DNA of 64,000 nucleotides from Octopus vulgaris (lineage: Eukaryota). Shown piece by piece: positions 34,807 to 37,376 of the stretch; position 1 is the first letter of the stretch; each line of letters starts with the position of its first letter. Where the stretch lies: positions 15,004,001 to 15,068,000 of the forward strand of contig OX597820.1 in the NCBI GenBank assembly GCA_951406725.2. The letters are read 5' to 3'. The notes under the pieces were generated by a model, which saw only the letters and a program-made list of their open reading frames with translations, was not told the DNA's origin and ran no database searches. The translations under genes were made by a program, and so were the position numbers.

Positions 34807-35208
34807 TCAGGCCTCCAGGGATTCTTCGTCAATTTTTATGTGTTGCTCGACACCGTAACGGAATTTACTTTTCCCCGTTACACTCCATATAAGGCTATCA
34901 TCTTTTTTTGTACAATGTTTCATTATATCGGAATTCGAACTTAAGAGCTTAACAATGCTTCCTTCAACTACCGATAAGAATGAATTGTTGTCTAGCAAGT
35001 TGGTCAGTACAACAACGATACGGCCTCGAATACGAACAGACAAACTGAAGTCGCAGTGGAACTCCTCTTCTGTTACCACCAAAGAAGCCGTGGTACGATG
35101 TCTGGGTCGTACTTGCACAGAACTATTTGCTGTCCATGTCAAACACTCTTCGTGTGTTTCCTCATTTCCTTTCTCCATCGTCACCTCACGACCAAATCCT
35201 GTAGTCAC
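34807..35208 (-). CDS. LIN-24-like / ETX-MTX2 pore-forming protein, paralog B, coding exon 2 (133 aa + TGA)
   Basis: Poly-T tract plus CAG acceptor at 35209-35230. Splicing gives an in-frame 254-aa protein ...LPEDIME|VTTGFGREVTMEK...LTWTANSSVQVRPRHRTTASLVV...GKSKFRYGVEQHIKI; the motif pattern resembles LIN-24-like aerolysin-fold proteins (recognition, not a database search). Confidence 0.88.
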   Translation of the reverse strand: MTTGFGREVTMEKGNEETHEECLTWTANSSVQVRPRHRTTASLVVTEEEFHCDFSLSVRIRGRIVVVLTNLLDNNSFLSVVEGSIVKLLSSNSDIMKHCTKKDDSLIWSVTGKSKFRYGVEQHIKIDEESLEA

Positions 35209-36018
35209 CTGAAAAAAAAAAAAAAAAAAAGGAAAATGTCTTTACTCATTCCTTTCATCTTTAACACTCTGCAGGTGCATCACGTTACAACATGAATTTT
35301 CTCCCCTGTAGCAACAGGGTAAACAATTCTAGAGAAAATGTAATGTGCTAAAGGTTAATTTAATGTCCTTTTTAATATGCCCAGTATAAGATCTGAAATT
35401 CTGGGCATACTAATGTCTCTGCCATCTCACCGCCTTAATAATAATTCTTTCAAATTGTAAGGCAGCGAGCTTGCAGAATCGTTTGTACGCCGGACCAAAC
35501 GCTTTGTAGGATTTCGTCCAACTTAATGTTCTAAGTTCAAATTCCTCTGAGGTCTACTTTGCTTTTCATCCTTTCGGAGTTGATAAAATTTATACCAGTT
35601 GAACTCTGGGATCGACTTAAATCTGCTTGCTTTGTGCCAAAATTTGAAACCAATAATCCTTTCAAATTTTGGCACAAAATAAGAAATTTTCAGGGGAAGG
35701 GGAAAGTTGAATACCTCGAACTCATTGCTCGACTGATCCTTATTTTATCGACCCTGAAATGATGAAAAGCATAGTCGACCTCATCTGAATTTGAACTCAG
35801 AACGTGAAAAACGCCACTAACTATTTTTGGCTACAATTGCGCTAGCTCACCGCCTTTCACACTATCAAAATTTAAATCAGAAATTTAATCGTACAGCAAC
35901 TTTGATCATTTCACTTATTAAGAAACGAAAATAGTGTCTAACAGTGCATGGGTTCATGGCGGACGTAAAGAATGTGGATCGCTGCCAATTTCGTTATTTT
36001 TATTTTTACTTTCATTCT

Positions 36019-36327
36019 TTTTTTACAGAATCCCCCATTTTCGAGTACCGAGATTCTGATTCTACGAAAGAAAAAAAAAAACGGCATTTTAAAATCTCGA
36101 TTTCCCGCCCCCACTCCACCCACCAAATTCTTCAATTTTCACTTTTTTCAGACATTTTTTTTAGAATCATAATCTCCGTATTTTTCAACAAATTTAGCAA
36201 AAAAAAAACAAATCTGAAAAAAAGTGAAAATTGAAGAATTGGGGTGGGGGGTCAAATTTTAAAATGCCGTTTTTTTCCCGCAAAATCAGAGTCTCCGTAT
36301 TCGAAAATGGGGGAATTCTGTAAAAAA
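36019..36327. mobile_element. Fold-back/MITE-like inverted repeat (arms about 115-135 bp) inside the intron of paralog B
   Basis: 36019-36152 is the approximate reverse complement of 36213-36327. Confidence 0.8.
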
Positions 36328-37013
36328 CAAAAAAAAAAAAAGAAGAGAAAATAACGCTAATCGACGGCTCACCGTAAACAAATGACGGTGTGTCAGTGTT
36401 AAGCAGCGATGGGTATAAATACATATTCGAACGCGGTAGGAAAACCATTCGCTATGTTTTGTTATGGTGAAACTGTTTCACTGTGGAATAAACTGAGACT
36501 AAACAACTCCTGACTCAACACATCACGGTTGTCGTCTTAACTCGCTATGCTCTAATTCACTCACGGTGGGATCGATAAAACTAACGGTTTCTAATTTAGG
36601 CACGAGGCCAGCAGTTTTCAGCAGAGAAATTACTATCGACCCCTGCACTTGATTGGCACTATATTTTGTCAACCTCGGAAGGATGAATGGAAGGAAAATT
36701 TGATCCCGACCGGATATAAACTCAGAACGTGAAGTGTGTCAACAAATACTGCAATTTTTTTTTTTCCTTTTTCTTGACATCATTGTAACGATATTAACAG
36801 CTCGCTACCTTTCGCTCTCTGTGAATTACTTATTACAAAACGATTCAAATCATGTCTTCACCTTCTCTTCAGATTTGAAACCTCACACCAATCTTAAAAG
36901 CCATTATTTGAATTACGCAACCGTTTCATTGAAAACGTGAATGTGAAATAGAAACGAAAAGATAAGGTTAAAAATAAACTGAAAACAAACCAGTTATTAA
37001 ATGCGCTACTGAC

Positions 37014-37376
37014 CTCCATAATATCCTCGGGAAGGGCTAACTTCAGTTCAACATTAAACCCTTTCGAGAAACCTTGAGTCAAAGCTGTGGTACATGTAGA
37101 GACAGTGGTTCGTTCTGTGGTGAAAGAGTTCTCCTGACTTTCCTTCGTATTATTTTCGTAGATGGATTTAAATACTACTTGTGACTTCTGACCTTTGCTG
37201 CGCTCTTTGTTTAGATATTCCAAGTCGAACGTAGTAAATTCCGTGTGGCTCCAATTGATCTTCAATAGTACGTTTTTGTAATCGTGTTTCTTAGCATCTT
37301 TACCAGACTTCTGATATTCTGTCCATGCCCAGTTCTTTATAAGTGGTTCCAAATCAATAATGTTGGTACAGTCCAT
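37014..37376 (-). CDS. LIN-24-like / ETX-MTX2 (aerolysin-type) pore-forming protein, paralog B, coding exon 1 (121 codons)
   Basis: ORF MDCTNIIDLEPLIKNWAW...ENNTKESQENSFTTERTTVSTCTT...ELKLALPEDIME. Phase-0 donor GAG|GTCAGT at 37013. A pyrimidine-rich acceptor (AG at 37383-37384) and an in-frame TGA (37380-37382) lie just before the ATG. Paralogous to 1957-2316. Confidence 0.88.

What the first reader, a model, noticed from the sequence alone, without database searches (positions are those of the whole stretch)
34807..37376. Spliced LIN-24-like aerolysin-type pore-forming protein gene, duplicated in tandem in a probable octopus genome
Seen: two short ORFs join through a phase-0 GT-AG intron (35209-37013) into a 254-aa protein. 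It has Ser/Thr-rich strands (NSFTTERTTVSTCTT), an alternating hydrophobic hairpin (GFSKGFNVELKLALP-EDIME-VTTGFGREVTM) and a VxVxP motif (VQVRPRHRTTASLVV). A second copy lies 35 kb away in the same orientation. No signal peptide or extra lectin domain is evident, and the intron falls near the tip of the predicted membrane hairpin. Known: this architecture typifies ETX/MTX2 beta-pore-forming toxins and C. elegans LIN-24; gastropods use aerolysin-like proteins (biomphalysins, glabralysins) in immunity. Inference: a cephalopod cluster of cytosolic or unconventionally secreted pore-forming effectors (immunity, cell death or venom).
Basis: partly seen in the sequence, partly recalled or inferred. 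Interest (0 to 1): 0.75.

Follow-up and report, generated by a model that had tools for sequence, protein, structure and literature searches.

The report
Octopus glabralysin-like pore-former, dead duplicate
This is a real, spliced octopus gene for a small protein with the predicted fold of bacterial pore-forming toxins but no secretion signal, belonging to a family already described in snails and worms; the nearby "second copy" lacks its second half, so there is no toxin gene cluster.

Summary
The gene is real. Exons 37376-37014 and 35208-34807 (minus strand, GT-AG, phase 0) equal an annotated 254-aa Octopus sinensis protein. Contigs from 4 of 4 presumed-RNA runs join them exactly. Pfam ETX_MTX2 scores above cut-off. 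The AlphaFold model (pLDDT 93.6) best matches PDB 2D42 and Cry23 (4RHZ), the templates published for snail glabralysins. The hairpin alternation is conserved family-wide. New detail: two alternative untranslated first exons lie 30 and 35 kb upstream, and an in-frame stop just before the ATG excludes a signal peptide. There is no lectin domain or C-terminal propeptide. The "tandem cluster" is not supported. The copy at 2316-1957 is exon A only; the duplicated block lost exon B, has changes at conserved residues and carries a 181-nt conversion-like tract. Two other family genes (contigs C4, C10) are ancient paralogues at 26-30% identity. Relatives at 43-49% occur in bivalves, a chiton and a sea slug, so the gene is not cephalopod-specific and venom is unlikely. 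It is likely a leaderless host pore-former of immunity or stress; pore activity is untested. New member of a known family.

The parts
37014..37382 (-). Coding exon A. The acceptor AG is at 37384-37383. The exon opens with an in-frame TGA (37382-37380), one codon, then ATG at 37376. It encodes residues 1-121: head helices, first long strands, S/T-rich strand and first half of the hairpin.
   Evidence: (contigs stop matching at 37384 and run on)
35209..37013 (-). Phase-0 GT-AG intron, 1805 nt, containing repeats
34807..35208 (-). Coding exon B, residues 122-254 plus stop: second half of the hairpin, S/T-rich strand, VQVRP, second part of the head, last strand. Hits Pfam ETX_MTX2 on its own (29.2 bits).
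37383..64000 (-). The part of the gene's first intron that lies in the window. It runs on beyond the right edge to two alternative non-coding first exons, whose 3' ends are at G000:C7:15071838 (L023:3838; donor GTAAGT; intron 30.5 kb) and G000:C7:15076589 (L023:8589; donor GTCTAA; intron 35.2 kb).
   Evidence: loose ends of runs X12 and X2; each matches once in the genome; donor sites
1957..2316 (-). Truncated duplicate: exon A only (120 codons, open frame, donor intact, 82% aa identity); no exon B. Probable pseudogene.
1711..2970 (-). Duplicated block around the truncated copy: 1711-2385 matches 36763-37453 (86%) and 2866-2970 matches 37486-37583 (73%). A third block just left of the window (C7:15002972-15003721) matches 29712-30413 (76%), downstream of exon B.
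36950..37130 (-). Conversion-like tract: 3 mismatches in 181 aligned nt between the copies (partner about 1893-2073), against 39 of 242 in the 5' part of the exon
   Evidence: Fisher p 1.3e-7; 0 of 5000 permutations
29712..30413 (.). Downstream marker of the duplication. Its only full-length second match in the genome lies 2 kb beyond the truncated copy, whereas here it lies 6.3 kb beyond the matching point with exon B in between.

Best explanation
The locus is one intact, spliced octopus gene for a 254-aa leaderless protein with a predicted single-lobe ETX/MTX2 (glabralysin/LIN-24-like) fold that likely works as a host beta-barrel pore-former in immunity or stress, plus a truncated, probably dead duplicate 35 kb downstream. 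Shown: gene structure, splicing, two alternative untranslated first exons, no possible N-terminal extension, Pfam membership, a conserved alternating hairpin, and loss of exon B from the duplicate. Predicted: the fold (AlphaFold, Foldseek, VIA). Inferred from aerolysin-family knowledge (recalled, not tested here): the protein is made as a soluble cytosolic monomer; the head (residues about 4-43 and 183-232, among the more variable parts, with conserved aromatics W16, Y21, W42, W229) binds a lipid or glycan; monomers form a ring; the hairpin 99-133 and the flanking S/T-rich strands refold into a beta-barrel, with the hydrophobic tip 115-120 anchoring it. Because there is no signal peptide, lectin domain or C-terminal propeptide, control would have to come from compartment, receptor availability or a partner rather than from proteolysis. 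The target would be an internal membrane, or an outside membrane after release from lysed or granular cells.
For: Splicing in 4 of 4 runs and junction letters. Pfam ETX_MTX2 above cut-off for the protein and for 4 of 5 mollusc orthologues tested; the chiton protein scored 21.9 against 22. Model pLDDT 93.6, pTM 0.81. Foldseek top hits 2D42, Cry51 (4PKM) and Cry23 (4RHZ), E 2e-14 to 7e-13. VIA Z 15.1 (rmsd 6.7, 233 aligned) and 14.7 (rmsd 6.0, 227 aligned); all 12 chains with Z>=8 are aerolysin/ETX-type or lectin-pore proteins. In 73 aligned relatives, positions 99, 103, 109, 111, 113, 119, 120, 122, 126, 130 and 132 are hydrophobic in 81-100% of rows, and the intervening 100, 102, 104, 108, 110, 112, 121, 123, 125, 127, 129, 131 and 133 in 1-18%; P116 is invariant. 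The hairpin is among the best conserved parts (62% mean identity to non-cephalopod orthologues, against 31% for head segment 183-232 and 24% for 44-66). Strand 81-103 is 43% S/T against 20% overall. In-frame TGA two codons before the ATG. Only 2 of 73 relatives reach a signal-like hydrophobicity threshold, both marginally. 6 of 114 relatives start with a myristoylation-like motif and 4 with MG plus cysteines, which fits cytosolic-side targeting in the family (no matched background computed). 82 of 91 full-span relatives end within 10 residues of the profile end. Duplicate: no exon B; flanking markers show the duplicated block spanned exon B; 16 derived amino-acid changes against 6 in the intact copy, 1 ambiguous, including W18, F69 and a deleted E82. 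Snail glabralysins have the same templates, have introns, and are expressed constitutively or change on infection (PMC7016736). LIN-24 acts in cell death, starvation and infection (review PMC12945463).
Against: No pore activity has been measured for this protein. The glabralysin paper leaves haemolytic tests to future work, and the LIN-24 review says oligomerisation and insertion are uncharacterised. The best structural match, 2D42, is titled 'non-toxic crystal protein', and the best-superposing chain among the top hits (6LHZ, rmsd 2.7 over 147 residues) is a toad aerolysin-like protein that I recall as a regulator rather than a lytic toxin. TM-scores are moderate (0.63 at best) and identities 15-17%. 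Three positions on the presumed lipid face are polar or basic (Q101, K105, R128). Tissue labels of the runs are hidden, so an immune role rests on analogy only. The 16:6 asymmetry is borderline (binomial p 0.052), and pairwise dN/dS in the unconverted part is 0.31, so the duplicate may have been functional for a time.
Confidence: 0.62

Rival explanations
1. Same fold, but not a lytic pore-former: a domesticated membrane-binding, trafficking or regulatory protein (for example tuning endolysosomes or mitochondria, or regulating another pore-former).
For: Old, slowly changing subfamily: 87% to O. bimaculoides, 73% to Argonauta, 43-49% to bivalves and a chiton. No propeptide or secretion signal that would keep a lytic protein safe. 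LIN-24 has reported metabolic and mitochondrial roles. The top hit is titled non-toxic.
Against: The amphipathic hairpin and S/T strands, the parts needed for insertion, are among the most conserved segments. This would not be expected if insertion had been abandoned.
Confidence: 0.25
2. A venom or salivary toxin of octopods, one member of an expanding toxin cluster.
For: Toxin-like fold. A local duplication did occur. The cephalopod stem branch is long (0.46) in the tree.
Against: No signal peptide is possible. The duplicate lacks exon B. The other two family genes are on other contigs at 26-30% identity and group with non-octopus proteins. The subfamily is present in filter-feeding bivalves.
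Confidence: 0.06
3. The truncated copy is functional, or the assembly is wrong: either exon A' is spliced to exon B as an alternative exon (misordered assembly) or it makes a half-protein that modulates the intact one.
For: Exon A' keeps an open frame, ATG, upstream AG and donor. dN/dS is 0.31 in its 5' part, and the hairpin-coding part is nearly identical to the intact gene.
Against: It lies downstream of exon B in the direction of transcription. Flanking markers are collinear and show a deletion spanning exon B; no Ns in 204 kb. It has changes at family-conserved residues. The near-identical tract extends 64 nt into the intron, which points to conversion rather than protein-level selection.
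Confidence: 0.07

Closest known systems
Glabralysins of Biomphalaria glabrata (PMC7016736; read: abstract, methods part 1 of 2, results, discussion, figure legends, supplement; figures not visible)
   Same: Single-lobe ETX/MTX2 proteins with introns, in a mollusc. Same best templates (2D42, 4RHZ). Variable head, conserved core. Published forward primers for Gla1Aa and Gla1Ba translate to N-termini that begin directly with the family's 'V-D-L' motif, as here. The tree legend lists a Cephalopoda cluster.
   Different: No glabralysin sequence was among my hits (0 matches of primer-derived motifs), so orthology is untested. Glabralysins are five genes with 3-4 introns; this gene has one coding intron. 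The C4 gene may be the nearer relative (untested).
C. elegans LIN-24 (review PMC12945463, parts 1-2 of 4 read)
   Same: Similar size (271 aa), stand-alone aerolysin-like domain. A nematode relative aligns over the full length at 28%, and a Nematoda cluster is the second Atlas hit at 0.98.
   Different: LIN-24 itself was not compared. The nematode sequence falls outside the mollusc clade that holds this gene.
Bacillus Mpp (ETX/MTX2-type Cry) proteins 2D42, Cry23Aa1, Cry51Aa, parasporin-2, and C. perfringens epsilon toxin
   Same: Predicted three-part elongated beta fold with helical head, amphipathic hairpin and S/T-rich strands.
   Different: 12-17% identity. The aligned ranges end at 238 in 4RHZ, 271 in 5HD2 and 262 in 1UYJ, short of those chains' ends, so the octopus chain has no C-terminal extension; that such tails are activation propeptides is recalled knowledge. 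It is spliced and has no secretion signal.
Biomphalysins, natterin-like Dln1 / lamprey LIP, LSL
   Same: Aerolysin-type pore module (4ZNO E 1e-7 by sequence).
   Different: Biomphalysins are about 575 aa, two-lobed and carry signal peptides (PMC8047071 passage). Dln1, LIP and LSL have about 150-190 residues before the matched pore module, which I recall as lectin domains. None of this is present here.

Membership tests
Aerolysin/ETX-MTX2 superfamily | Pfam PF03318 above gathering cut-off | tested here: met
   39.6 bits against 22, residues 67-252
Aerolysin/ETX-MTX2 superfamily | [quoted passage not shown] | tested here: met
   Model strands 45-75, 81-105, loop/hairpin to 132, 138-154, 158-191, variable part 192-225, 226-251; VIA Z 15.1 over 233 residues. 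Predicted, not solved.
Aerolysin/ETX-MTX2 superfamily | Alternating polar/non-polar insertion loop | tested here: met
   Column statistics over 73 sequences; exceptions at 101, 105 and 128
Aerolysin/ETX-MTX2 superfamily | Oligomerises and forms a beta-barrel pore | not testable with these tools
   Needs a biochemical assay
Glabralysins | Single lobe, ETX/MTX2 domain, best templates 2D42 and 4RHZ, intron-containing gene | tested here: met
   compared with PMC7016736
Glabralysins | Orthology (same clade as Gla1/Gla2) | tested here: inconclusive
   No glabralysin sequence was retrieved; only primers, gene ids and identity scores are in the supplement
LIN-24 family | Full-length homology to nematode LIN-24 | tested here: inconclusive
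   28% over 264 columns to an uncharacterized Ditylenchus protein; LIN-24 not identified among the 30 hits looked up by name
Biomphalysins | Signal peptide, about 575 aa, two lobes | tested here: not met
   254 aa, upstream in-frame stop, single lobe
Natterin-like / lectin-fused aerolysins | Extra N-terminal carbohydrate-binding domain | tested here: not met
   The whole chain 5-254 aligns to single-lobe 2D42; no other Pfam domain passes its cut-off
Tandem effector gene cluster | Two or more complete neighbouring paralogues | tested here: not met
   One complete gene in 204 kb; second copy lacks exon B
Cephalopod venom proteins | Secretion signal and salivary-gland expression (recalled criteria) | tested here: inconclusive
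   Signal peptide absent; tissue of expression not visible with these tools

The most novel reading that the evidence does not exclude
This is the octopus member of an old, pan-molluscan (with its sister subfamilies pan-spiralian and nematode) set of minimal aerolysin-fold proteins that act from inside the cell. They have no signal peptide, lectin or propeptide, and some members are lipid-anchored at the N-terminus. They would be cytosolic pore executioners of cell-autonomous immunity or regulated cell death, a beta-barrel counterpart of gasdermins, with an unknown safety switch. The octopus gene, with two promoters and one intact copy, would be a clean handle on it.
Probability: 0.22. Interest if true: 0.72.

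Novelty: new member of a known kind. Interest (0 to 1): 0.3.

Why it matters
As it stands the gene is an already annotated (though 'uncharacterized') member of a family described in snails and nematodes, and the cluster that made it look special is not there. What remains of interest is a family-level question: how does a conserved pore-former with no secretion signal, lectin or propeptide reach its target without killing its own cell? The octopus has only three detected intact family genes, each from a different old subfamily, so it is a simple system to ask this in. The decayed duplicate with a conversion tract over the hairpin-coding part is a minor genome-evolution curiosity.

Tried and rejected
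Expression of the truncated copy: in 3 presumed-RNA runs laid on 1650-2460 only contigs of the intact gene lay on the exon (36-42 differing letters each), and a fourth, unlabelled run gave no cover. Contigs show presence, not absence, so this is not counted as evidence. No run was on record as RNA; the RNA nature of the contigs is inferred from their joining exons up to 35 kb apart. A genome search with the Pfam family PF03318 found nothing, even at the known gene, and nothing in its controls: uninformative. Own-genome paralogue counts are therefore lower bounds from protein queries. A word-indexed search with the 73-sequence profile returned only 15 proteins, so names for distant members are sparse; 30 of about 150 hits were looked up by name, and many had none. 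No glabralysin was found among the hits. No oligomer prediction was obtained, so there is no verdict on self-assembly. The Atlas could not read the C10 paralogue. The first full tree did not finish. The FastTree of 128 rows gave the conserved mollusc subgroup only 81% support, and in the 34-row IQ-TREE (rows hand-picked from about 130) that subgroup is unresolved inside a well-supported 18-row clade, so strict 1:1 orthology is not claimed. A functional meaning for the intron position was rejected because paralogues differ. Regulation by a conserved disulphide was considered: only C95 is partly conserved (38 of 73). Literature searches listed no paper on this octopus gene, and neither LOC id occurred in the 8 papers listed. 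The library lacks most subscription journals, figures are not searchable, and supplements of cephalopod transcriptome papers were not searched, so the gene may be listed there. Fig. 4 of PMC7016736 includes a cephalopod cluster that I could not see; it may hold this gene's orthologue or the C4 gene's. Passages of PMC11860826 gave nothing on localisation. Earlier-findings look-ups gave nothing relevant.

Full report
Observation. On the minus strand, 37376-37014 encodes 121 aa and 35208-34810 encodes 133 aa followed by TGA. The 1805-nt intron starts GTCAGT and ends in a long T tract and CAG. A protein record from Octopus sinensis (LOC115230588, 254 aa, P0003) consists of exactly these two translations; orthologues from O. 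bimaculoides (87%, 254 aa) and Argonauta hians (73%, 252 aa) have nearly the same length. The genome is thus O. sinensis or a very close relative (inference). The window is G000:C7:15004001-15068000.

Splicing. Four runs from four studies, labelled RNA only by guess, each gave one contig of 905-1068 nt covering both exons. Record coordinates are contiguous at 37014|35208 in 4 of 4 (table 8). In one search the loose ends of two of these contigs show exon B letters abutting the end of exon A. All four contigs run on beyond the acceptor at 37384-37383. The two 5' loose ends shown differ; each maps once in the genome, at C7:15071840 and C7:15076591, each followed by a GT donor. So the gene has two alternative first exons, 30.5 and 35.2 kb upstream and outside the window. 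They cannot add coding sequence, because exon A opens with an in-frame TGA two codons before the ATG. A signal peptide is therefore excluded for these transcripts.

Protein. Pfam ETX_MTX2 scores 39.6 bits (cut-off 22). AlphaFold with 13 sequences gave pLDDT 79.3 and with 73 sequences 93.6, pTM 0.81. Foldseek's best hits are 2D42 (E 2e-14, TM 0.63), Cry51, Cry23, parasporin-2, Sip and epsilon toxin. VIA-align gives Z 15.1 (rmsd 6.7, 233 aligned) for 2D42 and 14.7 (rmsd 6.0, 227 aligned) for 4RHZ, and unrelated folds fall to Z about 4. The model has the five-strand core with insertion loop and variable loop defined in PMC3110756 (passages). Across 73 relatives the hairpin 99-133 alternates hydrophobic and polar columns, apart from 101, 105 and 128; P116, N75 and W146 are invariant. 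The hairpin and adjoining strand are the best conserved parts against non-cephalopod orthologues (61-62%); the head segments are at 31-43% and strand 44-66 at 24%. The whole chain aligns to the single-lobe 2D42, so there is no lectin domain, and it ends where Cry23, Cry51 and epsilon toxin continue.

Family. A full HMMER search found 397 clusters at E<=0.001 and 190 at E<=1e-10; the best 150 listed are mostly 230-330 aa. Named members come from bivalves, gastropods, a chiton, a nemertean, an acanthocephalan and a nematode; many of the 30 looked up carry no name. The Atlas's top clusters are ETX/MTX2 clusters whose commonest phyla are Mollusca, Nematoda and Platyhelminthes. The family looks leaderless: 2 of 73 reach a crude signal-like hydrophobicity threshold, both marginally; 66 of 91 full-span members have at most 5 extra N-terminal residues and 82 of 91 at most 10 extra C-terminal ones; 6 of 114 begin with a myristoylation-like motif (no background test). 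In a 34-row ML tree the octopod proteins sit in an 18-row clade (100/99) whose named members are all molluscs.

The second copy. At 2316-1957 lies exon A only (82% aa identity). No exon B is found in the 204 kb region by profile search or in the genome by protein search (lower bounds). Three collinear blocks define the duplication: 37486-37583 with 2866-2970, 36763-37453 with 1711-2385, and 29712-30413 with C7:15002972-15003721. The last has no other full-length match among the 85 listed. Between the last two blocks the intact locus has 6.3 kb including exon B and the copy has 2 kb without it, so a duplicate of the coding region lost exon B (inference). Against three octopod outgroups 16 amino-acid changes map to the copy, 6 to the intact gene and 1 is ambiguous (p 0.052); the copy's include W18, F69 and loss of E82. 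Pairwise dN/dS in the 5' part is 0.31, which cuts the other way or reflects constraint on the intact gene. The last 117 nt of the exon and first 64 nt of the intron differ at only 3 of 181 sites against 39 of 242 upstream (Fisher p 1.3e-7; 0 of 5000 permutations), most simply explained by gene conversion. An assembly chimera in that tract is not excluded.

Other paralogues. Contig C4 carries a gene with three coding exons and contig C10 a single-exon gene with a long C-terminal tail. They are 30% and 26% identical to the window's protein and group with other, unnamed family proteins rather than with it. The C10 protein scores below the Pfam cut-off (18.5 bits) and the separate C4 exons give no Pfam hit, but both match the family profile strongly. 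These are ancient paralogues, not a cluster.

How it likely works. Shown: a spliced gene, with two first exons, for a leaderless protein with a conserved amphipathic hairpin. Predicted: ETX/MTX2 fold. Inferred from aerolysin-family knowledge (recalled): head-mediated membrane binding, ring assembly, and refolding of the hairpin and S/T strands into a beta-barrel. With no signal peptide or propeptide the protein would be cytosolic, and control would depend on compartment, receptor or partner. By analogy with glabralysins (constitutive or infection-modulated expression, activity untested; PMC7016736) and LIN-24 (cell death when mutated, protection in starvation and infection; review PMC12945463), a host role in immunity or stress is most likely (0.62). 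A non-lytic, domesticated role is the main rival (0.25). Venom (0.06) and a functional half-gene (0.07) are unlikely.

Comparison with what is known. The superfamily assignment passes every test I could run. The protein has all the general features of glabralysins, including the same templates, but orthology to glabralysins or LIN-24 could not be tested because those sequences were not retrieved. It is not a biomphalysin or natterin-type protein. ETX/MTX2 genes are already counted in Aplysia (five; PMC9334734 passage) and Lymnaea (stagnalysins; PMC7919325 passage), and the glabralysin tree legend includes a Cephalopoda cluster. Eight literature searches listed no study of this gene, within the limits of the library.

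Verdict. Observation partly confirmed, interpretation partly supported: right fold, no cluster, not cephalopod-specific. New member of a known kind; interest 0.3. The boldest reading not excluded, a conserved intracellular beta-barrel executioner family of invertebrates, has about 0.22 probability.

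Noticed in passing
G000:C4, L014:5297-5010, L014:2999-2757, L012:9363-8998 (minus strand): A second intact-looking family gene with three coding exons, 30% identical to the window's protein and 47% to an unnamed relative (P0046); possibly the nearer glabralysin relative.
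   Followed up: partly
G000:C10, L003:577-1986 (minus strand): A third family gene in one open frame of 469 codons (about 449 aa from the first Met) with a low-complexity C-terminal tail of about 190 aa and a Cys/basic N-terminus.
   Followed up: partly
proteins P0023, P0035, P0045, P0049, P0098, P0127: Relatives that begin with a myristoylation-like motif, four with nearby cysteines; suggests lipid anchoring on the cytosolic side in part of the family.
   Followed up: partly
L023:8709-8635 (minus strand, within about 120 nt of the distal first-exon donor): A short ATG-started frame of about 24 codons just upstream of that donor; a possible upstream ORF if it lies in the exon.
   Followed up: no
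window 10066-10958 (minus strand): Two frames that look like a broken mariner-type transposase (recalled resemblance, not searched).
   Followed up: no
window 19733-20447 and 25154-25879: Short frames resembling non-LTR retrotransposon fragments (recalled resemblance, not searched).
   Followed up: no
window 2386-2866: About 480 nt inserted in the duplicate's upstream intron relative to the intact gene; its edge at 2400-2460 is a very high-copy repeat in the read data.
   Followed up: partly
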